Below are positions 6,809 to 22,315 of a stretch of DNA of 22,315 nt, piece after piece (the first letter of the stretch is position 1; the number at the start of each line of letters is the position of its first letter). The DNA lies in IMG/VR virus record IMGVR_UViG_3300005549_000001; one strand, 5' to 3'. Source of the stretch: an uncultured virus (IMG/VR IMGVR_UViG_3300005549_000001) (Duplodnaviria > Heunggongvirae > Uroviricota > Caudoviricetes). Both the position numbers and the translations under genes were made by a program. The notes beneath the pieces are model-generated. The model made no database searches. It was not told the DNA's origin and saw only the letters and a list, made by a program, of their open reading frames with translations.

Positions 6809-7246
6809 ATGCTCTCGCTCCGATTCAACAGGTGTTTCACTCCCGAGATCCTGCGCGAGCTCGAGCCGCTCCTGCCCGCGACGTACGCTTGCATGGACGA
6901 GCTCGCTCCGTGGCGGCGCGGCCGCTGGCCGACGCGCATCCACTGCATGGACGAGGTGCGCATCGTCGAGGGGCGCAAGCGCGGCGCGGGGCACGGCTAC
7001 ACCTACCCGCGCGAGAACGGCATCTGGATGAACCACCACATGACGCTCGCCGGGCACTGGCTCGTGCTCGTGCACGAGAACCTGCACCACGCATTCCCCG
7101 ACGCGACCGAGAGCGAGCTCAACAACGTGCTCGTGCCGAAGGTGTACCAGTGCACGTTCGGCAGGCGCATGGATCGCGCGTGGGCGCGCCGGCACGGGCT
7201 CGGTCCGCCTCAGCCGGGCATCGGTGACCGCGGGTTCGTGAGGTGA
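6809..7246 (+). CDS. Zincin-like metallopeptidase-domain protein (145 aa)
   Basis: LVLVHENLHHAFPDATE (HExxH plus downstream E) preceded by beta-strand-like segments. Confidence 0.7.
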   Translation: MLSLRFNRCFTPEILRELEPLLPATYACMDELAPWRRGRWPTRIHCMDEVRIVEGRKRGAGHGYTYPRENGIWMNHHMTLAGHWLVLVHENLHHAFPDATESELNNVLVPKVYQCTFGRRMDRAWARRHGLGPPQPGIGDRGFVR

Positions 7247-8365: not shown

Positions 8366-8467
8366 CTACTTCGGTGCCTCGGGCTGCTTGTAGACCTTCT
8401 TTTTCTTCCTCCGCCGAGCGCTGCCGCAGCAGCTCCGAGGAGGAGGCATCTTGATTTTCTCTGCCAT
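8366..8467 (-). CDS. Basic micropeptide (33 aa) MAEKIKMPPPRSCCGSARRRKKKKVYKQPEAPK
   Basis: TGATG overlap at 8467; its stop abuts the next GTG; it fills the gap exactly. Confidence 0.7.
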   Translation of the reverse strand: MAEKIKMPPPRSCCGSARRRKKKKVYKQPEAPK

Positions 8468-9078
8468 CACGCGGCTCCTTCCGTAGCGAGTTGCGCCTTG
8501 ATCTCGGTGAGCTTTCGCTCGAAGCGCCTGAACGTCGCCGCGCGGAGCTTCGCGCTCTCCTTGAAGCACGCGCCCCCGGTGCCGTACGCGGCGAACGTCA
8601 TGGTCAGCCAGTCGCCCCCGCGGTGCTGGTAGGCGCACATGTTGCGCGAGACAGAGGCGATGCGCCCGGCGACGAGCGCGGCCCGCCGCGTGCTGTCCTC
8701 GTCGGTCCCGGCGAGGGTCTGCCACATGCGCTGCGGGACGAAGGCGTTGGCGTGTATCTGCCACAGGCTCGCGGCGCGGAAGCGCACGACGTCGCCGGCC
8801 CGGTTCTTCACCGCGTCGCACTGGAACGGCTTGCACTGCCCCGCGTGCACGTCTGCGTCGAAGCCGCTCTCGTGCCACGCGATGGTGGTGAGCACGAGCG
8901 CGAGATCGCGCGTGGAGCCCGGCCACGTGCGCCTCCTGCCCGTCGACAGCGCCTCGCTCGCGTCCGCGACGGCGTTCGCGACCGCGTGCATGCGCGCCTC
9001 GCGGTCGCCCGAGTCCTCCGCCGTGTACTTCGACGGCGGCAGGCTCATGAGCAGGTGGAAGAGCAGGATGCGGAGCAT
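8467..9078 (-). CDS. Lytic transglycosylase/lysozyme-like protein
   Basis: SLT-type motifs IAWHESGF (catalytic E), SLWQI and AAYGTG; short hydrophobic N-terminus. Confidence 0.75.
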   Translation of the reverse strand: MLRILLFHLLMSLPPSKYTAEDSGDREARMHAVANAVADASEALSTGRRRTWPGSTRDLALVLTTIAWHESGFDADVHAGQCKPFQCDAVKNRAGDVVRFRAASLWQIHANAFVPQRMWQTLAGTDEDSTRRAALVAGRIASVSRNMCAYQHRGGDWLTMTFAAYGTGGACFKESAKLRAATFRRFERKLTEIKAQLATEGAA

Positions 9079-9080
9079 GA

Positions 9081-9404
9081 TCAACCCAGAAGGTTCGGGA
9101 AGCGCGAGAACGCGGGGTGCGGACCGCCGATGATTCCGGCGACGAACCAGTGCCTCTTGTCTCGTGAGCGCTGGACGGTGATGGTCTCGAGATTTTGCGC
9201 GCCCAAGACGATCAGCTGCTCGTCAGGCATCTCTTCGACTGCTTTGGGGCCGAGGCCGCGGTTCATTGCGACCTGTTCTCCAACTTCCAGATACTGCTCG
9301 TCGGTGGGACCGCGACGCAGGATTCTGTCGGCCTCTTCTGCCGCGGCTCTCTGCGTCCGAAAGGATCGGGAGAGCGAGATCCAGCTGCGAGTTCTTCTTG
9401 CCAT
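9081..9404 (-). CDS. Hypothetical protein (107 aa, starts MARRTRSW)
   Basis: TGATG overlap at 9404. Confidence 0.7.
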   Translation of the reverse strand: MARRTRSWISLSRSFRTQRAAAEEADRILRRGPTDEQYLEVGEQVAMNRGLGPKAVEEMPDEQLIVLGAQNLETITVQRSRDKRHWFVAGIIGGPHPAFSRFPNLLG

Positions 9405-9973
9405 CAGTCCATCCACCTCACGCCGCTCACCGCGGCGGGCCGGAACGCGCAGAAGTCTGCTCGGTACGCGGTCGACTCGACGGGCTCTCCCGTGTCGTAC
9501 GTCCAGAACTTGCCGTCATTCGTCACGACGACGATGCTCGCGCCGCTCGTCACGAAGCTTCTCGCGAGCGCGCTGTTCGCGGGCAGCGGCGGCGCCGCGG
9601 TCGCGGGCAGGTAGACCGCGCCGATGTTCTTCGTCGTGGCCCAGGCCTCGAGCCTGGCGAAGTCCTTCGCGGTCTCGAGCGTGCACGCTGTAGCCGGCGG
9701 GGGCGGCGTCATCGTGGCCGCCGCGGCCTGCTTCGGCCGGAAGATCGCGTAGAGCGCCGCGCCGGCGAACGCCGCGAGCACGAGGTAGCCCAGTGCGTTC
9801 GGCGCCGGCGTCTGGTTCGCGAGCAGCGGATTGCTGAGTAGCGCGCCGGGGCACCTGGACATCACCCTCTGGTCGCCGTTTGGCATGTTCACGATCGCGA
9901 CGTCGCAGCCTTGCGCCCGGAGCTCGGCGATCCTCCTCTGACTCTGCGCGCGGGTGAGCTGGGGTACGGCCAT
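9404..9973 (-). CDS. Single-pass membrane protein with a Cys-bounded domain ending RADFCAF
   Basis: TM LGYLVLAAFAGAALYAIF followed by RPK; domain paralogous to 9973..10749. Confidence 0.8.
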   Translation of the reverse strand: MAVPQLTRAQSQRRIAELRAQGCDVAIVNMPNGDQRVMSRCPGALLSNPLLANQTPAPNALGYLVLAAFAGAALYAIFRPKQAAAATMTPPPPATACTLETAKDFARLEAWATTKNIGAVYLPATAAPPLPANSALARSFVTSGASIVVVTNDGKFWTYDTGEPVESTAYRADFCAFRPAAVSGVRWMD

Positions 9974-10749
9974 CACGGCCCTCCATAGCTACCCGAGCCA
10001 GGCTGTGGTGCTTGGGGAGACTCCATCTCAGTGTTGTAAAAGTACCATCCTGGGTTTGGGTTAGGGGGGGCGAGCCACACCCAGTCCACCACCGCGAGCC
10101 AGTTGTCTTTGTAGCGCCAAGGATCGATGCCCGTGAGCTCTCGCAACCAGTCAGCTACGTACCCGCCGGGAACAGCGAGGTTGCCGGGAGGGTAAGGGGC
10201 AATCTGCTCGGATATTTTTTTCCACGTGCGAGAACCTGCGTCCCAGTACAAGAACTGGCGCGCAGTGTACGCCCACAGTTCTGTCCGAGGTTGACCGAGA
10301 CCCTGCGTAGTTCCTGACTGCGGGGGCTCGGGCGGTGCGATCTGCGGTGGAGGTGCATCGGGAAACGCGCAGTAGTCGGCGCGCAGGTTGTTGGCGCGGC
10401 CCGTGCTTGGCGGATCCTGGATGTAGTACCAGAATGAGCCGTCGGAGAGCACGGCGACCGCCTGCTGGCCAGCTGTGACAACGGGCGCTTGCGGATGACT
10501 GAAAAACTCCTCGATGGTCGGCGGCGTCGAGGTGCGGGGCAGGTAGAGAACGCCAAAGCCGCGTGCCTCGCCCCAGCGGTCGAGCTTCTGGAAGTCGATC
10601 GGGCACGTCCCGGGCATTGCCGCTGTCTTTGCCTCCGCGCGCTTGGCGAACAGGAGGTAGCCGACGAGGGCAACGGTGCCGATGATGAGCGCCGTGCCGG
10701 CGCCGCCGAGCTCGTTCGCCTCCAGGCACTCGTCGCACTCGGCGGGCAT
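9973..10749 (-). CDS. Single-pass membrane protein with a RADYCAF domain and a Trp-rich C-terminal domain (258 aa, starts MPAECDEC)
   Basis: TM ALIIGTVALVGYLLFA followed by KR; paralog of the adjacent gene; CATACT 7 nt before the ATG. Confidence 0.8.
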   Translation of the reverse strand: MPAECDECLEANELGGAGTALIIGTVALVGYLLFAKRAEAKTAAMPGTCPIDFQKLDRWGEARGFGVLYLPRTSTPPTIEEFFSHPQAPVVTAGQQAVAVLSDGSFWYYIQDPPSTGRANNLRADYCAFPDAPPPQIAPPEPPQSGTTQGLGQPRTELWAYTARQFLYWDAGSRTWKKISEQIAPYPPGNLAVPGGYVADWLRELTGIDPWRYKDNWLAVVDWVWLAPPNPNPGWYFYNTEMESPQAPQPGSGSYGGP

Positions 10750-10789
10750 CTCCCGTAGTATGCCCCGCCTCCCGCGACCAGGTCCACCG

Positions 10790-10993
10790 TCAATGCCGAA
10801 GCAGCCACCACGCCAGCAGGACCGCCCCGCCCGCGGCCGCGACCCAGGGCCAGCCGGGCGCCTCGGGAGCCGGGGGCGCTGGCGGTTCGGGCGCAATTCC
10901 GGGCAGGTACGCGACGTCGTCGCCGTCCAGGTAATCGGGCGGTAGCACTGAGCTCGAGGGGCAGCGCGCCGCCTGGCCGAGGTGGGCGTACAT
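10790..10993 (-). CDS. Small C-terminally anchored membrane protein (67 aa)
   Basis: MYAHLGQ..., Pro-rich linker, TM WPWVAAAGGAVLLAWWLL followed by RH. Confidence 0.75.
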   Translation of the reverse strand: MYAHLGQAARCPSSSVLPPDYLDGDDVAYLPGIAPEPPAPPAPEAPGWPWVAAAGGAVLLAWWLLRH

Positions 10994-11380
10994 TTACCTG
11001 AGCAGGCTCAGGGCGACGACTCCGACGGCGAGGCCGATGAGCGCCGGCACGACGAAGCTCGCAGCCGACCGCGTCTCCGCGACGCAGATGGGGACGGCGT
11101 CGATGGCCTTCTGCATCTGCGGACGGTTTCCGAAGTAGCCGCCCATGATGGCGGTGCACTGCGGCTCGGGCAGGTAGGGGCCGTCGGCGTTGCCCGCGCA
11201 GCTCTCAGCGCGCTGATCCCAGCACGGCGGCAGGGCTAGCAGTCCCGCCTGGAAGAGCTCGGCGCGCTCGGCGGCCGGGATGCGCGCGGCGCGCTGGTCG
11301 ATCTGCGCCGGCGTCATGGCGCGAAACTCCGCGCGCGTTGGCAGCGCCGTCGCCTGCCCGAGCCACTGGATCGCGTTCAT
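10994..11380 (-). CDS. C-terminally anchored membrane protein with 4 Cys (128 aa, starts MNAIQWLGQ)
   Basis: AAGGAG SD; C-terminal TM FVVPALIGLAVGVVALSLL followed by R. Confidence 0.8.
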   Translation of the reverse strand: MNAIQWLGQATALPTRAEFRAMTPAQIDQRAARIPAAERAELFQAGLLALPPCWDQRAESCAGNADGPYLPEPQCTAIMGGYFGNRPQMQKAIDAVPICVAETRSAASFVVPALIGLAVGVVALSLLR

Positions 11381-11391
11381 CTTCGTCTCCT

Positions 11392-12171
11392 TTACGCAAC
11401 GTAGCAGACCGCGCCCGCGTTCTTCGGATCGATCGCGTTCCAGCGCGCGGCGAGGAACCGGCCGACGACGATGGGCAGGATCACCCGGGCCTGGTAGATG
11501 TGGTCGGCGTAGCCCTGCGGGTCGACGTTGTCGTAGCCGAGCACGATGAGCCCGTTCAGGCGCTTGGGCAGCTGCTGCGCGGGCCGCGGGTACTCGACTG
11601 TGTACGGCCTCGTCGCCGGCGGTGAGCCGACGCGGATCGAGGTCGGCGCCGCCTCGATGCCGCGCACGGCGGGGAAGTCGTGATACTTGTCGCTGCCCGT
11701 CGCCCGCTCCCAGATCTGCGCCGCGGTCGCCGTCGTCGAGGCGTACGGCGGCTCGATGGAGCTGTGGGTGATGACGCACAGGCGCTCGGCAGCGGCCGCG
11801 AGCGTCGCGAAGCTCACCCAGGGCGTGAGCGCGACAGGGTCGGGGAGCTTGCCTGGCGCGGTGTGAATGCCGTCGACGGCGACCGCGGCGTCGATGCGCG
11901 CTCCGTCGCCGGACTTCAGGAGGCCGAGGACGCCACCGCAGCTCTCGGAGAACCCGAGCGCCGCGACGCGGAGCGGCGTCACGCCGGGCGCGTAGCGCTT
12001 GAGAATGCCGCGCACGGGCGTCGGCCAACCGAGCGCGCGCAGCTGGTCTCCATATTTCCTGTTCGCCGGCGTCGGCAGCGCGATGAACGTCGTCGGGCGC
12101 TGGAACGCGGTCTGCACGCTCGCAGGTACGGGAGCGAAGCTCCAGGAGACGACGACGTCAGTCTCCGCCAT
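11392..12171 (-). CDS. Alpha/beta-hydrolase-fold protein (259 aa, starts MAETDVVV)
   Basis: VAALGFSESC nucleophile elbow, AVAVDGIH, ITHSSIEPPYAST and a C-terminal DH (His candidate). Confidence 0.65.
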   Translation of the reverse strand: MAETDVVVSWSFAPVPASVQTAFQRPTTFIALPTPANRKYGDQLRALGWPTPVRGILKRYAPGVTPLRVAALGFSESCGGVLGLLKSGDGARIDAAVAVDGIHTAPGKLPDPVALTPWVSFATLAAAAERLCVITHSSIEPPYASTTATAAQIWERATGSDKYHDFPAVRGIEAAPTSIRVGSPPATRPYTVEYPRPAQQLPKRLNGLIVLGYDNVDPQGYADHIYQARVILPIVVGRFLAARWNAIDPKNAGAVCYVA

Positions 12172-12175
12172 GCTC

Positions 12176-12715
12176 TCACGCGAAGATGAGGAGGGCCGCC
12201 ACCGCGGCGGCCGCGAGCCCCGCGACGATCGCGGCCGTGCTGATGCCCTTCTTTTTTGCAAGCGCTGCAGCAGAAGGAGAAAGAACGACTTTGAATTCGT
12301 CTTCGGTTGTGAACAGCGTTGCCGTACTTGCGTCGCGCGTGACGACGACGTCGATTCTGTCGAGGGGCCTGCCGGCGGTCAGGGCGTCGACGGGCGCCGC
12401 GGTGTTCTCGTCCGCTAGCACGTACGCGCCAGTCGCCGTATCGGGGTAACCGGGCGCCGCAGGCGGCGGGGTGCCAAAGTTGACCTCGTAGCTTCCGGGA
12501 GAGTACGCCGTGTAGCCCGAGGCGTTGGGCGCTGATTGCGAGGCGTCCGGCACCCAGATCATCGCGGCGAGGTTAGCCGCAATGCTCTGAGCAAGTTCCG
12601 CCGGAAATGCGGTCGGCGCCTGACCGACTCGACCTACACCGGCGATGGCGCGCACGGCGGCATCCGGCGGCAGGAGGGAGAAGTAGGCGTAAGGCAGGGT
12701 GTGGGGCGGCCTCAT
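12176..12715 (-). CDS. C-terminally anchored membrane protein (179 aa, starts MRPPHTLP)
   Basis: KKK followed by TM ISTAAIVAGLAAAAVAALLIFA; TGgTAGACT 7 nt before the ATG. Confidence 0.8.
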   Translation of the reverse strand: MRPPHTLPYAYFSLLPPDAAVRAIAGVGRVGQAPTAFPAELAQSIAANLAAMIWVPDASQSAPNASGYTAYSPGSYEVNFGTPPPAAPGYPDTATGAYVLADENTAAPVDALTAGRPLDRIDVVVTRDASTATLFTTEDEFKVVLSPSAAALAKKKGISTAAIVAGLAAAAVAALLIFA

Positions 12716-12756
12716 GGAGCAGAGTCTACCACGCACGACTCTGAGGCAGAAGCGCC

Positions 12757-13461
12757 CTACTTGCGGGGGCTTACGCGATGCGACTTGTACCGATTCGAGC
12801 GGCGCGACTCGCTGAGCTGGCGCTTGATCGCGAGCCGCTGCTTGGCCCGCTTGTCGGGTGCGTACGTGACGTGGTCGTTCTCCTTTGGATCGAAGAAGCC
12901 TACGTAGCCACCGGGCGTTACGCCAAATGATCTCAGAGGCCGACGGAGGAAGTTCGTGTGCGCGCCCTTCTCCTCTCCCTCCGTGAAGTAGAGGGGCAGC
13001 ACGAAGTTCGAGACGCTGATGCGGCCGATCTTGTACGTCTGGTCCTGTACGGCGTCGCACATCTCAAACCAGTGGAATACCTTGCGGCTGTTCTTGGGAT
13101 GAGGGCCCATCGCGAGCAGGTTCACCTGTGGGTCGGCAATAATCTCGAGCACTTCGTGTGAGAATGTCACGCTCCATGGCTCGCCGAGCATCGCCGACAC
13201 ATCCGTGAAGACCACGCCGAAGGGCACGCCCGCCGCCGTGCGATCGTGGTAGCCGAGCACGTCGTCTACGTCGACTTCCTTCTCGATGTAGATCACGGCC
13301 GTGTCTAGCGAATCAGTCGGCGCATCGAGGTGCTTGAGTGTGCAAGGCATTCCCCAGTGCGGCACGAAGTCGCGCTCCAGTTGCTTGTTCACGGCGTTGA
13401 TGGCGGCCATGAGGCTCGAGTGCTTCATGATCTTCTTTCGCTGCACAACGCTTATGATCAC
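12757..13461 (-). CDS. Zincin-like protein with an HExxE motif (234 aa)
   Basis: LGYHD...SVTFSHEVLEIIADP...EMCDAV...VSNFVLP, reminiscent of the PHI-1/EXORDIUM-like pattern (GYH, HE..E..TDP, E..D); GGAGG SD. Confidence 0.7.
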   Translation of the reverse strand: MIISVVQRKKIMKHSSLMAAINAVNKQLERDFVPHWGMPCTLKHLDAPTDSLDTAVIYIEKEVDVDDVLGYHDRTAAGVPFGVVFTDVSAMLGEPWSVTFSHEVLEIIADPQVNLLAMGPHPKNSRKVFHWFEMCDAVQDQTYKIGRISVSNFVLPLYFTEGEEKGAHTNFLRRPLRSFGVTPGGYVGFFDPKENDHVTYAPDKRAKQRLAIKRQLSESRRSNRYKSHRVSPRK

Positions 13462-14174
13462 CGTCGCCTCCAGTTTGCGTCGAAGAGCCTACCGGCGCGC
13501 CAGTGCGCGGGGTTGCCCTGCATCTTGAGCCCGTGCGTGCTCGGCAGCATTCTGTTTTCGGCGAGCACGGGCCTGTGAAAGAAGACGCGCTTGCCGAGCT
13601 TCCACACGGCCCGCGAGAGTGCAGCATCCTGACCGTACGTCTTCGAGCTCCGGGGGCGTTTGTTCTTTCTCGGGCAATCGCAGGTGTCGAGTGCGCAACC
13701 GAATGTCGCGGCCCACTCGCGCACCAGCTTGAGGGCCGTGGTGGCGACTTCTCGCGGTGCTGCAACGCAGAGCGAGCCGTACATCACTTCTGAGTTGCGG
13801 TAGCGCTCGAGTCCGCTTGAGGCTGTGTGCATCGTGTCGCTGAGCGCGGCTTGGGACACGTAGAGCCAGCCGGCGCCGAACAGGGGATCTCTCAGTGCTG
13901 GCCACGTGAGGAAGTTGTGGACAAGGTGTCGGTTGACGAGCACGTCGTCCTCGAGCCTCATGATGTACTGGGCGTCACACGCCGCCATCTTCTCGAGCAG
14001 CTCGGCGAAGAACTGACACTTTGGCACGCCGCGAGGGTGCTCGTGGACCTCGAAGTTCTCGCCGATGTCCGACTCCCTGACGCTCTTCAGCGTCTCCTCG
14101 ACTCCGGAGGACCTCTGCGGACAGGTCTGAACGAATACAGCGACTTGTCTCATACGGCCCTTGTCAGGCATCAT
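13458..14174 (-). CDS. GT-A fold glycosyltransferase
   Basis: VFVQTCPQR...TLKS, IMRLEDDV (DxD-like), GQD.AL and a C-terminal H; GTGA overlap. Confidence 0.7.
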   Translation of the reverse strand: MMPDKGRMRQVAVFVQTCPQRSSGVEETLKSVRESDIGENFEVHEHPRGVPKCQFFAELLEKMAACDAQYIMRLEDDVLVNRHLVHNFLTWPALRDPLFGAGWLYVSQAALSDTMHTASSGLERYRNSEVMYGSLCVAAPREVATTALKLVREWAATFGCALDTCDCPRKNKRPRSSKTYGQDAALSRAVWKLGKRVFFHRPVLAENRMLPSTHGLKMQGNPAHWRAGRLFDANWRRR

Positions 14175-14182
14175 AGCAGAGC

Positions 14183-14896
14183 GTGCTGCCTCGTCGCCGA
14201 AACCGAAAGAAGGTCTACAAGCAACCTGCTCAGGAGCAGGTTCGCAAGGTGCGGGCTAGGCCTAAGCGTCCCACCAGGGAAGTGTCGTTGAGGGTTACCC
14301 ACGTGTCCTCGCGACCCGTACCGAATGTGTCGCTGTTTTCCTGCGTGCCGTACTCCCCCGATGGAAACCTCGGCGGAGCCTACAACAGGTTCATGGAGCT
14401 CTTGCCGAGCGACGGCTGGGCGTGCTTTCTAGATCACGACGCGATCTGGACGACGAGGTACTGGTACGATCAGATAGCGCGCGCCGTCGCCTCGGCACCT
14501 CAAAACACGGGCGCGATCACGGCCGTCACCAACCGCATCGCGAACCCGAGGCAGCTCGTTTCGGGGTGCCCGAAGGACCACGACATGCTGCGCCACCGCA
14601 GGTTCGGCATGGTGCAGTTCGTCCGGCACGGCGACAAGCTCGTGGAGATCACGAATGCGGAGCCGATGAGCGGCGTCGTCATCATCTTGTCGAAGGCGGC
14701 GTGGCGCGCGTGCGGTCCACTGCCGTCTGGACTGCTCGGCGTTGACAATCACCTGCACGCTGCGTTGAGGAGGGCTGGCAGGCGCGTCTTTCTCATGCCC
14801 GGGCTCTACGTCTACCACTTTTACCGCGGCGACGGGGACAAGTCGCACCTCCGGCGCGGGCGCGCGCTCGAGGAGCCGTCACGCTGGTGGCGATGA
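14183..14896 (+). CDS. GT-A (GT2-like) glycosyltransferase with a basic N-terminal extension
   Basis: PYSPDGNLGGAYN...WACFLDHDA...GVDN...GLYVYH. Start uncertain (14183, 14303 or 14327). Confidence 0.8.
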   Translation: MLPRRRNRKKVYKQPAQEQVRKVRARPKRPTREVSLRVTHVSSRPVPNVSLFSCVPYSPDGNLGGAYNRFMELLPSDGWACFLDHDAIWTTRYWYDQIARAVASAPQNTGAITAVTNRIANPRQLVSGCPKDHDMLRHRRFGMVQFVRHGDKLVEITNAEPMSGVVIILSKAAWRACGPLPSGLLGVDNHLHAALRRAGRRVFLMPGLYVYHFYRGDGDKSHLRRGRALEEPSRWWR

Positions 14897-15510
14897 AGAT
14901 CGTCGTCAACGGCGCGCGATACCGTGACCTGCCGGTCATTGATCCACAGAGGGTAGCGATCGAGGCGGACCTCTCGCGAGCAGACGTCGCCGTGCTGCAC
15001 GAGCTCTGCGCAGGCAGGACCGTCGTAGAATTTGGCTGCGGTGGCTCGACGCTGCTGCTTGCTCGCTTCAGTCGCATCGTGCTCTCGTACGACCACGACG
15101 TGGGCTGGCTCGAGCGCGTCGCCCGCGTGGCTCGTCGTCGAGCTCAGAAGGGCGTGCGCATGTCGCGCATTGTCCTGCAGCACGTGTCCGAGGGCGCCCC
15201 GCCGCCGAAGCTGCCCCGCGTCGACGTGCTCTTCGTCGACGGCGAGCGGAATGCCCGGCACCTCTGGGTAGAGCGCGCTCTCAGGGCCCGCGTTGCCCGC
15301 GTCGTCGTAATCCACGACTCGCGGCGGCCCTCGCCGCTCGCGGACTGCTCGTCGCTCATCACGTGGCCACTCACCAGGAGCATCGACAGGGTACTCTACC
15401 ACTACAAAAACTCGAACCACGTCGTCGTGTGCCTCCGCGACGAGTCCGTTCGGTACGTGGACTGGAATAAGGCTGAACCGCGGCGCCGATTGCCGCACTT
15501 GCACGTGTAG
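14893..15510 (+). CDS. Class I SAM-dependent methyltransferase
   Basis: VVEFGCGGST (motif I), VDVLFVDG, VIHD; ATGA overlap. Confidence 0.85.
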   Translation: MKIVVNGARYRDLPVIDPQRVAIEADLSRADVAVLHELCAGRTVVEFGCGGSTLLLARFSRIVLSYDHDVGWLERVARVARRRAQKGVRMSRIVLQHVSEGAPPPKLPRVDVLFVDGERNARHLWVERALRARVARVVVIHDSRRPSPLADCSSLITWPLTRSIDRVLYHYKNSNHVVVCLRDESVRYVDWNKAEPRRRLPHLHV

Positions 15511-15525
15511 GGTTAGCATAGGGAA

Positions 15526-16191
15526 ATGAAGCGCACGCGGGAGCAGTGGGTGTCGCTGTGCAGGTGCGTGAGCTCTGGATTCATCCCGAGCACGGGAAGG
15601 GCGACGCTCTACGACAGCGGCGTCGAGTACGTGAAAACGTTTCTCGAGCCCTCGGGTGCGCTCGGCGGCAACGATCGCGTCGTCGACGTCGGCTGCGGCA
15701 ATGGCCGACTCGCCATGGGACTGACCGAGCGGCGCGGCGTGCAGTACTTGGGACTTGACGTCGTCCGCGAGTCGGTAGACTTCTGCGCTGCCGCGTTCGA
15801 GGGCTTGCCTGGCTTCAAGTTCGCGCACCTTGACGTTCGCAACTCCCGGTATAACCCCGCCGGCAAGCAGGACGGCGCGCGGATGACGCTGCCGCTGCCC
15901 GACGGTTGGGCGACGCTCGTCGTCGCCTCGAGCCTCTTCACGCACATTGCAAACCCCCTCGTGACGAAGCGCTACCTCTCCGAGATGCGGCGCGTGCTCG
16001 AGCCCGGCGGCAAGATGCTGACGACGTGGTTTGCCAACCCGCCTAACAGGCTCTCGGGCAACGAGGCGCGCGTCGTGCGTCGGCAATCTGATATTGAGGC
16101 GCTGCTAGAACCTGACGAGGTCGTCTGGCAACACGGCGGCGAAACGACTGAGCACCACGACCAGTGGATGCTTCTCACAAGGGTGGCGTGA
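15526..16191 (+). CDS. Class I SAM-dependent methyltransferase
   Basis: VVDVGCGNGR, YLGLDV, SSLFTH, RVLEPGG. Confidence 0.9.
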   Translation: MKRTREQWVSLCRCVSSGFIPSTGRATLYDSGVEYVKTFLEPSGALGGNDRVVDVGCGNGRLAMGLTERRGVQYLGLDVVRESVDFCAAAFEGLPGFKFAHLDVRNSRYNPAGKQDGARMTLPLPDGWATLVVASSLFTHIANPLVTKRYLSEMRRVLEPGGKMLTTWFANPPNRLSGNEARVVRRQSDIEALLEPDEVVWQHGGETTEHHDQWMLLTRVA

Positions 16192-16769
16192 GCCTCGTCT
16201 CGGTCATCATTCCGACGATCGGGCGCCCGTCCCTCAAGAACACCGTCGAGTCCGTGCGGGCTCAGACACACCAGCCCGTTGAGGTGATCGAGGTAGTCGA
16301 CGCGCGCAGGCGCGGCGCAGCTTGGGCGCGCAACGAAGGAGCTCGCAGAGCTCACGGCGAGTTCCTCTTTTTCTGCGACGACGACGTCCGGCTGGAGTCC
16401 CGGGCACTCGAGATGCTCGTCGCGGCTCTCAGGCATTTGCCGAGCGCCTCGTACTCGTACGGCTGGTACGTGATGGGCCCCCACGTCATCAGCCGCGTCA
16501 AGTTTGATGCGGTCAGGCTCCGCAAGAAGAACTTCATTTCGTCGATGGCTCTTGTTCGCGCCTCGCACTTCATCGGCTTCGACGAGAAGCTGCCGCGCTG
16601 GCAGGACTGGGATCTTTGGCTCCGAATGCTGCGTTATGGTCGCGTTGGCGCATTTGTGGACGCCAAGATCTTTGAGACGACATTTGATCCGAAGGGGATC
16701 AGCGGCAACGCGCGCGCTCTAGAAGTGGCCCGGGGCGTCTTGCTCAAGCGGCACGGGATTCAGCGATAG
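16188..16769 (+). CDS. GT2 glycosyltransferase
   Basis: VSVIIPT, GAAWARNEG, EFLFFCDDD, FDEKL...QDWDLWLR; GTGA overlap. Confidence 0.9.
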   Translation: MSLVSVIIPTIGRPSLKNTVESVRAQTHQPVEVIEVVDARRRGAAWARNEGARRAHGEFLFFCDDDVRLESRALEMLVAALRHLPSASYSYGWYVMGPHVISRVKFDAVRLRKKNFISSMALVRASHFIGFDEKLPRWQDWDLWLRMLRYGRVGAFVDAKIFETTFDPKGISGNARALEVARGVLLKRHGIQR

Positions 16770-17907
16770 AGCGCGTCCAATTGGCGAGGCTACGACCGAC
16801 GTGCGCCGCTCGGTGCCGCTCCCAGCCCGGCCAGGTCCGCGTGCCGCACGCGTGCTGGCCGCGGGCCGTCTGCATCGCCTCGACGAGGTCGTCGAGGTCG
16901 TAGTCGATGTAGGTCGCCCCCTCACCCCACGGGTAGCTAAGATCTGCTGCGATCAGGCCAGTGGCCGATATACAAATGTCTACTTCCGGATCGAGGAAGT
17001 CCTCGGGGCCGCCGCTCGCCGTGCAGATGAGGCGCCGCCCCGCGAGCTTGGCTGCCCAGGCACCGAGCTCGAGGCCCTCGCCGCGGCTCGCGCTGACGTA
17101 GACGTCTCCGTCGGCGTGCACCCCGAGCATCTCCTCGCGGGAGAGTCGGCCCTCGACGATGCATACATCTTCCCACACGTTCGAACCGGTCCAACCATTT
17201 CGATAGACGTCGGGCTGGCCGAGCTCGTAGTCGACGATGCGCCAGGGGCTCGGGTACTCAGCGATGTGCTGGATGGGGCTCGTCTTCAGCGTGAGCTTGG
17301 ACTCACCCGGGGCGAAGGCTCGCAGGAAGGCGCGGATGATGTTGTCCGGGGTCTTGCGCGGCTCAAATCTGCCGATGTTGTAGAAGTGCTTCGGTTCGCG
17401 AACAGGCTTGTCGAGCTCGAGGTGCGGGTCGTCGTCGAAGAATGGGTAAGGGATCAGCGCGACGTTGTGAACGCCGGCCTCGCGGAGCACGAGCTCGTTC
17501 ATGCGGCACTGCACCCACACGCCCGAGAGCTGGTTCATCTTCTCGACGAGCGCCGGCTCGATGTAGCGCCTCTCGAACACGCAGTAGAAGGCCTGCGGTT
17601 CCTTGTTCGTCATCATTGCGTCGAGCACGCCGAGCTTGTCCGAGGACAGCAGCGCGCAGGAGAAGACGTGCAGGTCGACGCCGCGGAGCTGCTGCTCCGT
17701 CGTCAGCATGGACAGGGGGTGCTCCCCCGTGAGTGCAGGAAGGAGCTCGTTGAATAGCTCCTCGTCGAGACCGACGGCGTTTGGTCGCTGCCAGTCGCGG
17801 AGCAGCACGTCGAGACCGCCGAGCTGCATGGCCCGGGCGTAGGCCCTCGACGCGATGGACCAGCCGTCGGCTGGGTGCATCCACGGCGTATTGAAGAGGA
17901 CCTTCAA
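16744..17907 (-). CDS. GT4-like (GT-B) glycosyltransferase
   Basis: NIGRFEPRK, DVYVSASRGEG, GGPEDF; TTG start abuts the upstream stop. Confidence 0.85.
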   Translation of the reverse strand: MKVLFNTPWMHPADGWSIASRAYARAMQLGGLDVLLRDWQRPNAVGLDEELFNELLPALTGEHPLSMLTTEQQLRGVDLHVFSCALLSSDKLGVLDAMMTNKEPQAFYCVFERRYIEPALVEKMNQLSGVWVQCRMNELVLREAGVHNVALIPYPFFDDDPHLELDKPVREPKHFYNIGRFEPRKTPDNIIRAFLRAFAPGESKLTLKTSPIQHIAEYPSPWRIVDYELGQPDVYRNGWTGSNVWEDVCIVEGRLSREEMLGVHADGDVYVSASRGEGLELGAWAAKLAGRRLICTASGGPEDFLDPEVDICISATGLIAADLSYPWGEGATYIDYDLDDLVEAMQTARGQHACGTRTWPGWERHRAAHVGRSLANWTRSIAESRAA

Positions 17908-18348
17908 CTAGTTTCGCTTCTCTACGGCGAGAGAGGCGAGCACCGAGTCACCCGCGTCACTCTGCGCCACCAGCTGGATGACATCTCCCGCGTCGAGCTC
18001 GACCAGGACAGTGATCGCTCCGGATCGGACGCCAGGATTCTCCGCGGAGTCGAGGGCTATCTGAGAGCCGTTGCGGAATATGGCAATGATGTCCAGACCC
18101 GCGCCGCTCCAGAAGTGCGTCGCGTAGATCGCGTAGACGCCGTCCTGCAGGACGTTGATCGCGTCACTCGCGAGGTCAGGCTCGAGCGCGGGGCCGATGT
18201 CGAAGTCGATGGTGTCGAAGTCGACGAATCCGCCGCCTCCGGGTGGTGTGAAGGGGGTGGCGTTCGAGATCTTCGTCGCGGAATATAAGGCTGCGCCGGG
18301 AGCGCCTCCTCCGGGAGAGCAGATCGTGGGACAGATGGGGGCTACCAT
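17908..18348 (-). CDS. C1q/TNF-like beta-sandwich protein with N-terminal CPTIC
   Basis: VDFDT.DFD, DGVYAI, IFRNG and VELDAGDVIQL follow the C1q strand pattern. Confidence 0.75.
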   Translation of the reverse strand: MVAPICPTICSPGGGAPGAALYSATKISNATPFTPPGGGGFVDFDTIDFDIGPALEPDLASDAINVLQDGVYAIYATHFWSGAGLDIIAIFRNGSQIALDSAENPGVRSGAITVLVELDAGDVIQLVAQSDAGDSVLASLAVEKRN

Positions 18349-18352
18349 GACA

Positions 18353-18838
18353 TCACCCTACGCACGGCCGGAAGATGCTGAGCGCCGCGCTGTTCAGGAG
18401 CACGCCCTCGAGCGCGCCGTTTTGCACTACGAAGAGTTGGACGAGATTTCCTGCGCCAAGAGCGAGAGATGTAGCCACGCTCTGTGTTGAAGGCGCCGGG
18501 CCCAGTGCGTGGACGAAGGCTGCCCTTTGGACGCCGTTCACGTAGATGAACGTCGTTGCGAAGGCTCCGGGATCGCCCGTCGCACCGAAGTTCATCGTGA
18601 AGTTGACGGAGTAAACGCCGAGCGCGCCAGCCACCACGCCGTCGTTCGGCAGGTCGGCGAAGCTCGGAGGAGTCTCGAAGTCGACCGTGTCCATGTCCAC
18701 GTCACTGAGCCCACCGTTTAGGAGAGCCTGTGGCGTCGACGAGCTCACGCCCGCGCCAGTCTCTAAGCAGGGTGTGCCTACAGGTCCACAAGGCTGAGCC
18801 ACGGTGCTGCAGATGGTATTCGTGATGGGTGTGGGCAT
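18353..18838 (-). CDS. C1q/TNF-like protein with N-terminal TNTIC
   Basis: VDMDTVDFE, GVYSVNF, IYVNG, LALGAGNLVQL. Confidence 0.75.
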   Translation of the reverse strand: MPTPITNTICSTVAQPCGPVGTPCLETGAGVSSSTPQALLNGGLSDVDMDTVDFETPPSFADLPNDGVVAGALGVYSVNFTMNFGATGDPGAFATTFIYVNGVQRAAFVHALGPAPSTQSVATSLALGAGNLVQLFVVQNGALEGVLLNSAALSIFRPCVG

Positions 18839-18850
18839 GTTGAACCTTCT

Positions 18851-19363
18851 TTAGATGCGGCTGGCTAGGATAATCAGCGCCGAGATCAGGGTGGCGTACT
18901 CGCCCGCTATGAAGCCGCCAATAGCGACCTGTAGGGTATCTCCCGGTTCGAGCGAGAGCATTTTGTCGGCAGATCCTGAAAATGACAGAAAGAGGTTTGC
19001 CGAATCGATCGTACCCTGCTGCACGGTGTCCAGAACGATTTCTCCGTTCTTCCGCAGCATCGAGAAGAAGGGTGTTTTTGCTGGAGAAGACGTCACGGTG
19101 ATAGAGATCGCGTAGCTGACACGCGCCCTGAGCGCCGCGGTGCCCACATATCGAAGAACTCCGGGAGCTGGACTGTCGAAAAAGTTACTCTCGGGACTGA
19201 GGCTGCCCTCGGGCACCTCGTGCGACTCGGAGGCGGCTTGAGTGAAGTTGAACGAGGGAGGCGTCGTCGAGGCAGAGAGGGAGAGCTCACCGACGACGAA
19301 GGGCACGCCGCTCCTGGCCCCTGGCGACGTCCCCGTAGAAGTGTCTGCGATGGGAATGGTCAT
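18851..19363 (-). CDS. TNF/BclA-like beta-sandwich protein (170 aa, starts MTIPIADT)
   Basis: AGGAG SD; LRKNG and LSLEPGDTLQV; paralog of 19366..19884. Confidence 0.7.
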   Translation of the reverse strand: MTIPIADTSTGTSPGARSGVPFVVGELSLSASTTPPSFNFTQAASESHEVPEGSLSPESNFFDSPAPGVLRYVGTAALRARVSYAISITVTSSPAKTPFFSMLRKNGEIVLDTVQQGTIDSANLFLSFSGSADKMLSLEPGDTLQVAIGGFIAGEYATLISALIILASRI

Positions 19364-19365
19364 CG

Positions 19366-19884
19366 TCAGCTCCTCGTGGCGACGATGCTGAGCCCCGAGA
19401 CGAGCATGCTGTAGGTCGACCCGGGTGTGAATGCCGCCAGGCCTATCTGGAGCGTGTCGCCAGGCTGCAGGGTGAGGAGTGTGTCGCTCGAGCCCGTGAA
19501 TGCGATGTCCCCCTCGGCGCCGATGTCGAGCGACATGAGCTGCAGCGTCGAAAGCACGTTGTCGCTGTTGAGGATGAGATTCGATAGGAAGAGCGACGCT
19601 GTGACGCCGCCAGTCGCGGAGAGCCACACGGCCGAGAGCGCGTAGCTCACGCGGAAGCGCAGCGGCGCTGTTCCCACGTACTGCAGCGTGCCAGGTGAGG
19701 GGTTCGTGAAAAGGTTGCTGTTTTCTGCGTCGAGCGTGCCAACCGTTACTGGGTGCTGCTCGCTAGCAACCTGCGCGAAAGCGAATGCTGCGCCCGTCAT
19801 GTCCCCGAACGAGACCTCGCCGGCGACGAAGAGGGGTCCGCCACCAGCGCCGGGTGAACCTCCGCAGATCGTTTCGCACTTCAT
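19366..19884 (-). CDS. TNF/BclA-like beta-sandwich protein with N-terminal CETIC
   Basis: GTLQYVG, RVSYALS, LTLQPGDTLQI. Confidence 0.7.
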   Translation of the reverse strand: MKCETICGGSPGAGGGPLFVAGEVSFGDMTGAAFAFAQVASEQHPVTVGTLDAENSNLFTNPSPGTLQYVGTAPLRFRVSYALSAVWLSATGGVTASLFLSNLILNSDNVLSTLQLMSLDIGAEGDIAFTGSSDTLLTLQPGDTLQIGLAAFTPGSTYSMLVSGLSIVATRS

Positions 19885-19888
19885 CTTT

Positions 19889-20209
19889 TTACGCTCCCGG
19901 CATGAGGGTGTACGCGATAACGGCGGCTACTCCAAGTACGAGTGCCGCGGCTCCCTTGTTCGGAGACCTGCTGCCGAGCCAGTATGCGGCCGTGAAGATC
20001 GCGAGGTCGGTCGCGACGTTGAGCGGCGACTCGGGCCTCTTGCTTCCGAAGAGCACCGAGCCGCGCGGCCACTCGTGCGCGTACTCGATGACCTCGTAGG
20101 CCACGGCGCCGCCGAACGCGGTGAGGGGAGAGACGCCGAGCAACCCCGTGGACAGGCCGGTCAGGCCGTGCACGGTGCTCCAGGCATCGAGGGCGGACTC
20201 GTTGATCAA
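19889..20209 (-). CDS. Small polytopic membrane protein, DUF2585-like putative metal-dependent hydrolase (106 aa)
   Basis: TTGA overlap start; DAWSTVH...YEVIE...ESPLNVATD within hydrophobic helices. Confidence 0.6.
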   Translation of the reverse strand: MINESALDAWSTVHGLTGLSTGLLGVSPLTAFGGAVAYEVIEYAHEWPRGSVLFGSKRPESPLNVATDLAIFTAAYWLGSRSPNKGAAALVLGVAAVIAYTLMPGA

Positions 20210-20679
20210 CCGCCACCTGAGATGATGTCGACGATCTGATCGCGGATGCAGTAGCTCATCTCGAGGTCCCATCGGTACGTACCAGCGGCTCCGTCGACCT
20301 GAAACTGGAGTGTGTTGCCGCTGACGTTGAAAGCGGTAGCCAGACCTGCTGAGAGAGATTGCAGCGTTGTGTTTTGCTGCAGCACGGTGAGTCCTGGAAG
20401 GATGTTGTCCGCGTCCCAGCGCCGGGCCATGCCGCGGAAGTACACGAAGCCTCCCTGCACGCCGTCGACGTTGTCGATCGTCTTCACGACGTAGCCAGTT
20501 ACCGTGACCTCGACGAGCTGTTCGTCGGCTACCGCCAGGTCGAACTCCGGCACAATCATCAGTGTGTCGCCCTCGGTGAAGACCGTGGCGCAGCGAACCG
20601 GGCAGCAGCCCCCTCCTTCGGCAGCTACGGCTTGTTGTGCTGGGCTGCCGCAGATTGTGCTGCACTGGGGGGCTATCAT
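20206..20679 (-). CDS. Beta-rich putative virion protein with N-terminal CSTIC (157 aa)
   Basis: Start MIAPQ at 20679; beta-strand pattern ending TLQFQVDGAAGTYRW. Confidence 0.7.
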   Translation of the reverse strand: MIAPQCSTICGSPAQQAVAAEGGGCCPVRCATVFTEGDTLMIVPEFDLAVADEQLVEVTVTGYVVKTIDNVDGVQGGFVYFRGMARRWDADNILPGLTVLQQNTTLQSLSAGLATAFNVSGNTLQFQVDGAAGTYRWDLEMSYCIRDQIVDIISGGG

Positions 20680-20686
20680 GGTTTTG

Positions 20687-20696
20687 ATGGTACCAT
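20687..20696. promoter_or_regulatory. Palindrome ATGGTACCAT, candidate bidirectional extended -10 element
   Basis: Reads TGgTACCAT on each strand, exactly 7 nt before ATG 20704 (+) and ATG 20679 (-). Confidence 0.6.
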
Positions 20697-20703
20697 GACC
20701 CGC

Positions 20704-20961
20704 ATGAGGCACACCAGCAGCCGGCGCGCAAGGAGACCGGACCCCCTCGCCCGGCTCCGAAAGATCGCCGATTTAGCTGAGTCCGACCCCTCTCGTTTTC
20801 GTGAGGAGTGTCGGCAAGTGGCGTCGAAGCTCGGCGTGGGCGTCGAACAGCTCTACCGGCTCGAAAGCGATCCGGAATTCAGGAAGGCCCTGAAGGAGAT
20901 GGCCGTTAATGCGGCACTTTCAGGTGCGGTCAAGCTCGCCCGGCGCGCGCTCGGTATCTAG
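20704..20961 (+). CDS. Small helical, possibly HTH protein (85 aa, starts MRHTSSRR)
   Basis: Fills the gap between two minus-strand genes; QVASKLGVGVEQLYR is HTH-like. Confidence 0.6.
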   Translation: MRHTSSRRARRPDPLARLRKIADLAESDPSRFREECRQVASKLGVGVEQLYRLESDPEFRKALKEMAVNAALSGAVKLARRALGI

Positions 20962-20962
20962 C

Positions 20963-21787
20963 TTAGACGAGCCCGGGGCCGTAGCGGGCCGTCACGTAGG
21001 CGTCGAGCTCGGCGAGTTCTTGAACGGTCGGCTGCCTGTCGAAGATTGCGAAATCACAGACCTCAATGTTGGCGAAGGAGGACAAGTTGGCCGCGGCGCC
21101 GAGAACGAAGTTTGCAGCAGGATCGGTGTTACCGGCGTTCGCAGTCGTTTGCGTCGCGCCACCGACCTTGGTGTAGTCGCTGACGCTGCCCGAGAAGTAA
21201 ATCTCGAGCCGCTTGTAAACGTTGAGCGTGAGCCCGCTGTTCGGGTTTACGCCAAAAGCGCCAGCTCCGGCGTCGTTTCTCATTGCAATGACGGGCGTCC
21301 CGCCGGGCATGTGCTGCAGCACTGCAAGCGAGCTATTGTTGCCGACACCGGCTCCCCACAATCTGTCGCCGCCGGTCCAGGTCACCTGGCGCAGCACGGC
21401 CCAGTAGAAGGTGCGAGTCGTGGCAGGCGCGGGCAGGTCGAGCAGGGCGTTGGCGACGTCGTCGTTGACCCCGTCGAAGAGGACGGATGGCGTGGCGTTA
21501 GGTCCGCCGGTCGCGTTGAACGTCGGCTGGTTTGCCCCGACGGCTTGGATCAGATCGAAGCCGTTCCCGCTTCCGTCGGTCCACGAGCTGACGGTGCCCC
21601 CGTTGAGTACCAGGAGGTCGCCGCGCCACCAGGCGACCGTACTGGCGCCCATGATGCTCGCGGGTGTTATCGGAGCGGGCGGAGGCACCGGGGGAATCGG
21701 CGTCACCACAATTCTGTTGCAGATCGTCTCGCAGGACTGCGCGCAGGACGTGCGACAGGGTCCGTCGCAGTTAATTTGACAAATCAT
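20963..21787 (-). CDS. LamG/concanavalin-A-like protein with a Cys-rich N-terminus ending CETIC (274 aa)
   Basis: AWWRGD...VSSWTDGSGNG...Q.....QP...FDGVND...YVTARYG, a typical phage LamG-like pattern; GAGGA SD; Pro-rich linker. Confidence 0.8.
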   Translation of the reverse strand: MICQINCDGPCRTSCAQSCETICNRIVVTPIPPVPPPAPITPASIMGASTVAWWRGDLLVLNGGTVSSWTDGSGNGFDLIQAVGANQPTFNATGGPNATPSVLFDGVNDDVANALLDLPAPATTRTFYWAVLRQVTWTGGDRLWGAGVGNNSSLAVLQHMPGGTPVIAMRNDAGAGAFGVNPNSGLTLNVYKRLEIYFSGSVSDYTKVGGATQTTANAGNTDPAANFVLGAAANLSSFANIEVCDFAIFDRQPTVQELAELDAYVTARYGPGLV

Positions 21788-21957
21788 TGTCCTCGTTTCC
21801 TCTGCTCCGCGAGCTTCTTGTCGGCGTCCCTCTTGATCTCGTCGAGCATCTGCTCGGCCTCGCCGTACTTGCCGACTTGCTTTTCTATCCCCTTGACGAC
21901 GCTCGAGCGTATCGATCTCCCCGACGGGAGCCTCTGCGGCAACTTGTCTTCGGGCAT
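21784..21957 (-). CDS. Small charged protein (57 aa, MPEDKLPQRL...EQRKRGQ)
   Basis: Hand-translated; ATGA overlap with the 21787 start; fills the gap. Confidence 0.65.
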   Translation of the reverse strand: MPEDKLPQRLPSGRSIRSSVVKGIEKQVGKYGEAEQMLDEIKRDADKKLAEQRKRGQ

Positions 21958-21968
21958 GCGGCTTGATC

Positions 21969-22295
21969 TTATCTGCGCTGGAGTAGCGCTGCAACGGTGC
22001 CCTTGAGCTCGCCGATCTTGTCGATGAGCCGCTCGCGCCGGTCGCTGTCGAGGTTCGTGTAAGCTGTAAATTCTTCGACCGTGAGATAGTCCTTCAGGGC
22101 GTGTTCCACGATCTCGCGCACGCGCTCGTCGGAGAGGGTCGGCAGCCTCTTGTCCTCGAGCTTCTTCATTTCCTCCCGGAGAAGCTTTAAGTCCCTCTTG
22201 TTTTCACGACTTACGCGCGCCTTCGTCGTGAAGTACGTGCTCACGGCCGAGCCCAGGGCGACTCCGACAAGGGTCGCTATTTGGGCGGCGTCCAT
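21969..22295 (-). CDS. N-terminal TM plus coiled-coil protein (108 aa; phage membrane or lysis-associated type)
   Basis: One N-terminal hydrophobic helix then charged helices; TACACT 6 nt before the ATG. Confidence 0.7.
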   Translation of the reverse strand: MDAAQIATLVGVALGSAVSTYFTTKARVSRENKRDLKLLREEMKKLEDKRLPTLSDERVREIVEHALKDYLTVEEFTAYTNLDSDRRERLIDKIGELKGTVAALLQRR

Positions 22296-22315
22296 GTCAG
22301 CAGTGTAGCCTATAA

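What the first reader, a model, noticed from the sequence alone, without database searches (positions are those of the whole stretch)
8467..22295. Gene set suggests a temperate, tailless, internal-membrane virus rather than a tailed phage
Seen: about 14 kb of apparent structural region has no terminase, portal or tail genes. It does have many small single-pass membrane proteins, an SLT-like enzyme and TNF/C1q-like proteins, with a tyrosine recombinase nearby. Known: PRD1 has a TNF-like spike head (P5), a membrane-associated lytic transglycosylase (P7) and many small membrane proteins. Inference: a large, glycosylation-capable jelly-roll virus lineage. Its capsid protein and packaging ATPase are not in this window.
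Basis: partly seen in the sequence, partly recalled or inferred. Interest (0 to 1): 0.72.

Follow-up and report, generated by a model that had tools for sequence, protein, structure and literature searches.

The report
Large tailless phage without packaging motor
This window is part of a complete 84-kb circular virus genome in which no head-tail or DNA-pumping genes were found; its two predicted jelly-roll shell proteins, many predicted membrane-anchored proteins and a very arginine-rich protein suggest a tailless, lipid-lined bacterial virus that likely wraps its shell around pre-compacted DNA.

Summary
The window is the last quarter of a complete 84,195-bp circular virus genome. No terminase or FtsK/HerA ATPase was found in it by profile or motif search, and no portal or HK97 capsid profile matched. 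The same held for two complete relatives (73.5 and 93.4 kb). Outside the window lies a conserved block, g36 to g25. g27 and g26 are predicted (pLDDT 89 and 84) to be single jelly rolls. Both have the capsid of the ATPase-less archaeal virus SPV1 as top Foldseek hit, but the scores are modest. g28 has a protamine-like arm. g34 has a transglutaminase-type Cys-His-Asp triad and is homologous to a virion protein of the cultured membrane phage SSIP-1 (E 3e-20). Two short motifs mark the virion proteins: an N-terminal WLG on membrane-anchored ones, and ENP. They are likely docking or cleavage sites. Best reading: an undescribed family of large single-jelly-roll, membrane-containing phages that likely condense the genome and mature by proteolysis instead of pumping DNA.

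The parts
5508..6431 (+). g114 tyrosine recombinase (integration or dimer resolution; role untested)
   Evidence: Pfam Phage_integrase E 3.6e-25; sequence
8467..9078 (-). g121 probable lytic-transglycosylase-like protein
   Evidence: WHES motif; homolog in G005 at E 2.8e-10; no Pfam hit
9404..9973 (-). g123 single-pass membrane protein; xNP-type motif before the helix; paralog of g124
9973..10749 (-). g124 single-pass membrane protein, N-terminal helix
10790..10993 (-). g125 67-aa protein with N-terminal HLGQ motif and hydrophobic C-terminal tail
   Evidence: KD 1.38, weak
10994..11380 (-). g126 membrane protein with N-terminal WLGQ motif and C-terminal anchor
   Evidence: homologs in L006/L011 and G005
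11392..12171 (-). g127 conserved 259-aa protein, no family hit; about 49% identical in G003 and G004, 47% in G005
12176..12715 (-). g128 C-terminally anchored membrane protein
13458..17880 (.). g130-g135 glycosyltransferase/methyltransferase cluster (likely virion or host-surface glycosylation)
   Evidence: Pfam GT2 5e-15, Methyltransf_25 1e-12, weaker GT hits; PHROG glycosyltransferases; g135 homologs in G004/G005
17908..18838 (-). g136, g137 paralogous small beta proteins, BclA_C-like; likely spike heads
   Evidence: BclA_C E 0.023 and 3e-4, below cut-off; paralogy E 1e-10
18851..19884 (-). g138, g139 second paralogous pair of small beta proteins; fold untested
   Evidence: paralogy E 1e-31; no Pfam hit
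19889..20173 (-). g140 small membrane protein
20963..21652 (-). g143 paralog of the C-terminal domain of g1; likely spike or receptor-binding domain
   Evidence: phrog_10356 'virion structural protein' E 9e-14; paralogy E 1e-62
22196..22315 (.). 120-bp terminal direct repeat. The genome closes here and the structural arc continues into G000:C1:1-29374, outside the window (g27 C1:20625-21917, g26 19900-20613, g25 19048-19890, g28 22002-23780, g34 26824-27549, all minus strand)

Best explanation
The window belongs to a complete 84-kb circular virus in which no terminase or packaging ATPase was found, and which likely builds a tailless icosahedral shell from two or three predicted single-jelly-roll proteins around a likely protein-rich lipid membrane, infecting a probably bacterial host. 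Shown: circular genome; conserved gene block g36-g25; motif enrichment; Cys-His-Asp triad in g34; basic arm of g28. Predicted: jelly-roll folds of g27 and g26. Inferred mechanism: the membrane-associated g28 binds and compacts replicated circular DNA through its arginine-rich arm, so genome, membrane and shell assemble together without an ATP-driven pump. The N-terminal WLG/LGQ peptide would recruit the membrane proteins (cell-wall hydrolases, adhesins) to the shell. The transglutaminase-fold g34 would then clip virion proteins at the WLG and/or ENP motifs during maturation. Spikes are likely built from the BclA_C-like and repeat proteins and may be glycosylated by g130-g135. Odds by step: tailless jelly-roll particle 0.85; lipid membrane 0.8; truly no packaging ATPase 0.8; co-condensation by g28 0.6; motifs are g34 cleavage sites 0.4.
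For: Circle with 120-bp repeat. No TerL, A32 or HerA profile hit at E 1 in six frames while controls rang. The only Walker A inside a plausible ATPase is in primase-helicase g73. No hit with the PRD1, PM2, SH1, P23-77 or SSIP-1 ATPases. G004 and G005 are also circular and show no such ATPase. The g27 family spans 103 clusters at 50% identity, with contigs to 112 kb. Models have pLDDT 89 and 84; the top Foldseek hit of both is SPV1 6oj0 (E 2.7e-3, prob 0.80; E 8e-4, prob 0.96); HCIV-1, HHIV-2 and P23-77 capsid chains are among the top VIA rows. g34 triad residues are invariant in 27 of 27 aligned sequences. g34 is homologous to SSIP-1 structural protein gp34 (E 3.3e-20), and the g27 profile's three best hits among 57 SSIP-1 proteins are adjacent structural gp45, gp46 and gp47. 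g28 residues 41-185 are 68 of 145 R/K, and the arm is kept in G004 and G005. WLG occurs 15 times vs 1.7 shuffled and ENP 8 vs 1.4 (0 of 1000 shuffles reach either); both replicate in G005.
Confidence: 0.7

Rival explanations
1. Same tailless membrane virus, but WLG and ENP are uncut docking or sorting peptides, and g34 is a true transglutaminase (cross-linker) or acts on the host envelope.
For: Q is common after WLG (7 of 37) and could be an acyl donor. The capsid family ends in [LI][AS]G in 58 of 110 sequences vs 15.8 shuffled, which fits a binding peptide as well as a cut site. The fold does not separate protease from transglutaminase (label: 'transglutaminase-like putative cysteine protease').
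Against: The residue after WLG varies (S 8, Q 7, R 7, A 6 of 37), as expected for a P1' position. The motif also sits between modules, e.g. between the g34 domain and a fused membrane tail in homologs and between repeats of g23 homologs, as in a polyprotein.
Confidence: 0.35
2. The virus does pump DNA, using an unrecognised motor (the conserved g35/g36/g29, the primase-helicase g73, or a host ATPase).
For: g35, g36 and g29 are conserved in all relatives and have no family hit. SSIP-1, the closest cultured comparator, has Walker A proteins gp40 and gp41 next to its structural genes. An 84-kb genome is large for pump-free assembly.
Against: No P-loop in these proteins. G004 lacks g73 yet keeps the block. 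A protamine-like arm would hinder pumping of naked DNA (inference). ATPase-less SPV1, FLiP and Odin viruses exist.
Confidence: 0.15
3. A highly diverged tailed phage whose head genes escape the profiles; the jelly rolls are cement or tail-fibre domains.
For: Caudovirus-like replication genes (PolA, primase-helicase, ThyX). Tail-fibre and cement chains score as high as capsid chains in VIA. Atlas labels.
Against: TerL is absent from three complete genomes. About 17 membrane-anchored proteins lie in the structural arc. Homology to SSIP-1 gp34. No long tape-measure-like gene among the called genes.
Confidence: 0.06
4. An enveloped or non-icosahedral virion, with the membrane outside and the jelly rolls forming an inner shell or scaffold.
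For: Membrane proteins with N-terminal hydrolase or adhesin domains (g16, g17, g21) must reach the host wall. Poxvirus scaffold proteins score similarly in VIA.
Against: The nearest cultured comparators (SSIP-1, P23-77, PRD1) carry internal membranes, and P23-77 has virion-associated lysozyme.
Confidence: 0.1

Closest known systems
[quoted passage not shown]
   Same: Circular dsDNA, 44 kb, 100 nm, T=49, possibly single jelly roll (PMC6260650, passages); membrane-containing with two MCP types (PMC6356626, passages). Its structural protein gp34 is a homolog of g34 with the same triad and a C-terminal hydrophobic tail. gp44-47 parallel g28-g25 in order, with weak profile hits. ENP occurs 4 times vs 0.83 in its late genes (6 of 300 shuffles).
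   Different: SSIP-1 has Walker A proteins gp40/gp41 with no homolog here. It has no WLG enrichment, and gp44 has no basic arm (7% R/K). Its genome is half the size; gp45/46 are 210 aa against 430 aa for g27.
Portogloboviridae (Sulfolobus polyhedral virus 1, SPV1)
   Same: Top Foldseek hit of both g27 and g26. Single-jelly-roll MCP and no packaging ATPase (PMC8812541, passages).
   Different: Archaeal host and one MCP gene; about 20 kb (recalled). Here there are two or three jelly-roll-type genes, peptidoglycan enzymes, a PolA replisome and 73-93 kb genomes.
Halopanivirales (Singelaviria/Helvetiavirae: P23-77, SH1, HHIV-2, HCIV-1)
   Different: They have a conserved FtsK/HerA ATPase (PMC5332951, passages), absent here. 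Genomes are 17-31 kb. No sequence similarity of capsid proteins.
Tectiviridae (PRD1)
   Same: Tailless, many small membrane proteins, wall-lytic enzymes; a relative's anchored SLT hits P7 at E 3e-12.
   Different: Double jelly roll, protein-primed polymerase, linear 15-kb genome and ATPase P9; none has a counterpart in G000.
Adenovirus core proteins and protease (recalled; not tested)
   Same: Arginine-rich core protein plus a cysteine protease acting at short motifs (analogy only).
   Different: Different protease fold, double-jelly-roll hexon, no membrane, eukaryotic host.

Membership tests
Caudoviricetes (tailed phages) | Large terminase subunit | tested here: not met
   PF03237 0 matches at E 1 in six frames, 8 of 14 controls ring; no TerL in Pfam/PHROG scans of 139 of 145 genes
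Caudoviricetes (tailed phages) | HK97-fold capsid protein and portal | tested here: inconclusive
   No profile hit; only 2 proteins were folded, both jelly rolls
Tectiviridae / Bamfordvirae | [quoted passage not shown] | tested here: not met
   g27 and g26 models each hold one eight-stranded barrel, and capsid matches align about 105-157 residues, one barrel's worth; g25 not folded
Tectiviridae / Bamfordvirae | Protein-primed PolB and linear genome with inverted repeats | tested here: not met
   PolA g55; direct terminal repeat
Tectiviridae / Bamfordvirae | FtsK/HerA packaging ATPase | tested here: not met
Halopanivirales (Singelaviria) | Two adjacent single-jelly-roll capsid genes | tested here: met
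   g27 and g26 adjacent in 5 viral records G001-G005 as well as G000; predicted folds; capsid role inferred
Halopanivirales (Singelaviria) | Vertical barrels forming heterohexameric capsomers | not testable with these tools
Halopanivirales (Singelaviria) | Packaging ATPase | tested here: not met
   no tblastn hit better than E 0.13 with the P23-77, SH1 or PM2 ATPases
Halopanivirales (Singelaviria) | Internal lipid membrane | not testable with these tools
   inferred from 17 proteins with predicted anchors
Portogloboviridae | SPV1-like single jelly-roll MCP | tested here: inconclusive
Portogloboviridae | No packaging ATPase | tested here: met
Portogloboviridae | Archaeal (Sulfolobales) host and a single MCP gene | tested here: not met
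   amidase E 3e-20 and M23 peptidase E 3e-18 point to a peptidoglycan host; two jelly-roll genes
SSIP-1-like phages | Transglutaminase-fold virion protein | tested here: met
   hmmsearch E 3.3e-20, hhalign prob 98%
SSIP-1-like phages | Homologous capsid gene run (gp45-47) | tested here: inconclusive
   top three of 57 proteins, E 0.049, 0.16 and 0.37
SSIP-1-like phages | Walker A protein (gp40) beside the structural genes | tested here: not met
   no phmmer hit in G000, G004 or G005; best tblastn E 0.09 on the non-coding strand

The most novel reading that the evidence does not exclude
An undescribed, widespread family of 73 to at least 119-kb bacterial viruses with single-jelly-roll shells and a membrane that package DNA with no motor at all: a membrane-tethered protamine-like protein condenses the circular genome, two short address peptides (WLG outside, ENP inside) sort virion proteins, and a transglutaminase-fold protease cuts them. 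This would be adenovirus/poxvirus-style core assembly and maturation, evolved independently in phages with an unrelated protease, and SSIP-1 would offer a cultured model for the protease step.
Probability: 0.4. Interest if true: 0.92.

Novelty: new variant of a known kind. Interest (0 to 1): 0.78.

Why it matters
Prokaryotic jelly-roll viruses in the papers read are small: 7-18 kb for double-jelly-roll viruses (PMC5894146), under 20 kb (PMC8812541), 44 kb for SSIP-1 (PMC6260650). Those without a packaging ATPase are described as small and simple. Complete genomes of 73-93 kb without such a motor would show that pump-free packaging scales to phage-typical genome sizes. They would also expose a large lineage (103 clusters at 50% identity) that hallmark-gene classifiers cannot place. 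How jelly-roll viruses package circular or protein-covered DNA is named as an open question in PMC6260650. The motifs and g34 give a direct biochemical test, and the g34 homolog in the cultured SSIP-1 makes it testable without knowing this virus's host.

Full report
Context. The window is G000:C1:62001-84315. The contig ends in a 120-bp direct repeat, so it closes to an 84,195-bp circle and is classed as a complete virus record. I called 145 genes with a codon model (g-numbers). The finding covers g121-g145. Across the junction the same, mostly minus-strand structural arc continues through g1-g36. The remainder holds PolA, a primase-helicase, a helicase, nucleases and ThyX.

Observation. The listed features are real but weaker than written. 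There are five clear and one doubtful membrane proteins among 25 genes. BclA_C hits for g136 and g137 are below the cut-off; that BclA_C is TNF/C1q-like is recalled. g121 has an SLT-type WHES motif but no profile hit. About 4.4 kb of the region is a glycosyl-/methyltransferase cluster. Nothing in G000 resembles the seven PRD1 proteins tried (P2, P3, P5, P7, P9, P15, P31) at E 1.

Tailed-phage and ATPase genes. Pfam and PHROG scans of 139 of 145 genes (six of 47 aa or less left out) found no large terminase, portal, HK97 capsid or tail family. The exceptions are an M23 domain shared with tape measures and a weak small-terminase HTH hit in g89. Six-frame searches with Terminase_6N, Pox_A32 and DUF87/HerA gave 0 matches at E 1, while 8, 14 and 14 of 14 control genomes rang. 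Four Walker A patterns occur in frames of 80 aa or more; only that of primase-helicase g73 lies in a plausible ATPase. The pattern missed helicase g63, so deviant P-loops can escape it. Two relatives are also complete circles: G004 (73,521 bp) and G005 (93,375 bp). Pfam scans of their proteins of 90 aa or more (77 of 124 and 111 of 165 called genes) and Walker A scans of all called genes showed no packaging ATPase or terminase. G004 has a weak rolling-circle Rep hit and no PolA, so the structural block travels with different replicons.

g28 and g34. Read from its first ATG, g28 is 592 aa. Residues 41-185 contain 68 R/K and 4 D/E, followed by hydrophobic segments and a weak LysM hit (E 0.079). 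G004 and G005 keep a basic arm (75 R/K in 216 aa; 84 in 235). g34 has invariant D112-C113-D114, H146 and D161 in 27 aligned sequences, a weak Transglut_core hit, and distant homologs annotated PF01841. In two related viruses (L005/L009/L010 and L006/L011) an insertion splits the gene at residue 113. In L005 it has intein-like ends (motif recalled), as expected at a catalytic cysteine.

Motifs. In the structural arc WLG occurs 15 times (shuffled mean 1.7), LGQ 14 (3.4) and ENP 8 (1.4); 0 of 1000 shuffles reach these counts, and the other genes have 4, 0 and 2. Eleven proteins carry WLG or HLG within their first ten residues, nearly all with a membrane anchor. For two of them (g19, g22) I chose the start codon partly on the motif. 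These proteins include a glucosaminidase-like g16 and a CAP-domain g21. The patterns were picked after reading G000. G005 replicates them (WLG 11 vs 2.0, max 6; xNP 19 vs 6.8, max 14), while G004 is marginal and uses variants. ENP punctuates the g28 arm four times and often sits next to an anchor on its basic side (examples, not a controlled count).

Link to a cultured virus. The unnamed top BFVD hit led me, by recall, to SSIP-1. Its structural protein gp34 matches the g34 profile at E 3.3e-20 with the triad aligned. The g27 profile's three best hits among 57 proteins are adjacent structural gp45, gp46 and gp47 (E 0.049-0.37). ENP is modestly enriched in its late genes, once in gp44, just upstream of gp45. 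SSIP-1 is a 100-nm, T=49, 44-kb membrane phage (PMC6260650 and PMC6356626, passages). It has Walker A proteins that this lineage lacks.

Mechanism. Shown: genome form, gene content, motifs, triad, basic arm. Predicted: the two folds. Inferred: a membrane-lined icosahedral particle; DNA compaction by membrane-associated g28 and co-assembly without a pump; WLG as a shell-docking propeptide; maturation by g34; entry aided by anchored wall hydrolases; glycosylated spikes. The host is likely a bacterium, given the amidase and M23 peptidase, but is unidentified. Lysogeny is unproven: g114 looks catalytically complete, yet no provirus was found, and a recombinase on a circular genome may simply resolve dimers (established for Xer-type enzymes; recalled).

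Comparison and novelty. It works like SPV1 (jelly roll, no ATPase) and like SSIP-1 or Halopanivirales (several jelly-roll genes, membrane), but fails a defining test for each named family. Passages read give 7-18 kb for prokaryotic double-jelly-roll viruses and name Odin and FLiP as ATPase-less (PMC5894146), and name SPV1 and FLiP as ATPase-less (PMC8812541). PMC10848233 and PMC5332951 (passages) define the realms and the sphaerolipovirus core. Ten searches listed no description of this lineage. Earlier AI notes from this scan describe similar 64-94 kb ATPase-less genomes with an arginine-rich, NP-studded core protein. They agree with this reading but are not independent support, and a sequence look-up did not link them to g27.

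Verdict. A real feature and a new variant of the single-jelly-roll membrane viruses; interest 0.78.

Noticed in passing
L005:3519-5399 (also L006/L011, shorter insert): Intein-like insertion exactly at the catalytic cysteine of the g34 homolog; about 340 aa in L005, about 100 aa in L006/L011.
   Followed up: partly
G004 genes 30, 38, 40, 41, 55; G005 genes 74, 80, 87, 109: A third N-terminal motif (Q-L-x-S-P-x-G-x-W) shared by spike-like proteins; G000 uses a different one (G-P-G-E-P-G-G-T-L-P in g1-g3). Likely a swappable spike-attachment module.
   Followed up: no
G000:C1:3802-14232 vs G001 (L013, L005): G001 is 97-100% identical to G000 over g3-g10, g13-g15 and g21-g22 but only 47-85% over g25-g36: recent module exchange between related viruses.
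   Followed up: partly
G000:C1:5054-10997, plus strand: An inverted cassette (methyltransferase-glycosyltransferase-TPR g7, g10, repeat-rich anchored g13) inside the minus-strand structural arc; g4 shares the S-D-x-x-x-V-T-D repeat.
   Followed up: no
L030:17254-18783 (G004): Weak rolling-circle Rep hit and no PolA, primase or helicase in a complete 73.5-kb genome; unusually large for such a replicon.
   Followed up: no
L028:7618-8667 (G004): Tyrosine recombinase that seems to lack the C-terminal His and Tyr; g114 is not a phmmer hit at 1e-3 to the G004 or G005 recombinases although they sit in a similar neighbourhood.
   Followed up: partly
L029:2869-12615 and L034:13728-L035:3483: Relatives carry larger sugar-synthesis clusters (GDP-mannose dehydratase, dTDP-sugar epimerase, C-methyltransferase, several glycosyltransferases).
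   Followed up: no
window 676-1830: g106, 384 aa, matches phrog_1362 (unknown function, E 3e-36); not folded.
   Followed up: no
window 6809-7246: g116 is conserved at 51-58% in G003-G005 next to the recombinase; no family hit.
   Followed up: no
L015:3747-5186 (G002): 479-aa ORF ending in a zinc-finger motif, TnpB-like by eye (recalled).
   Followed up: no
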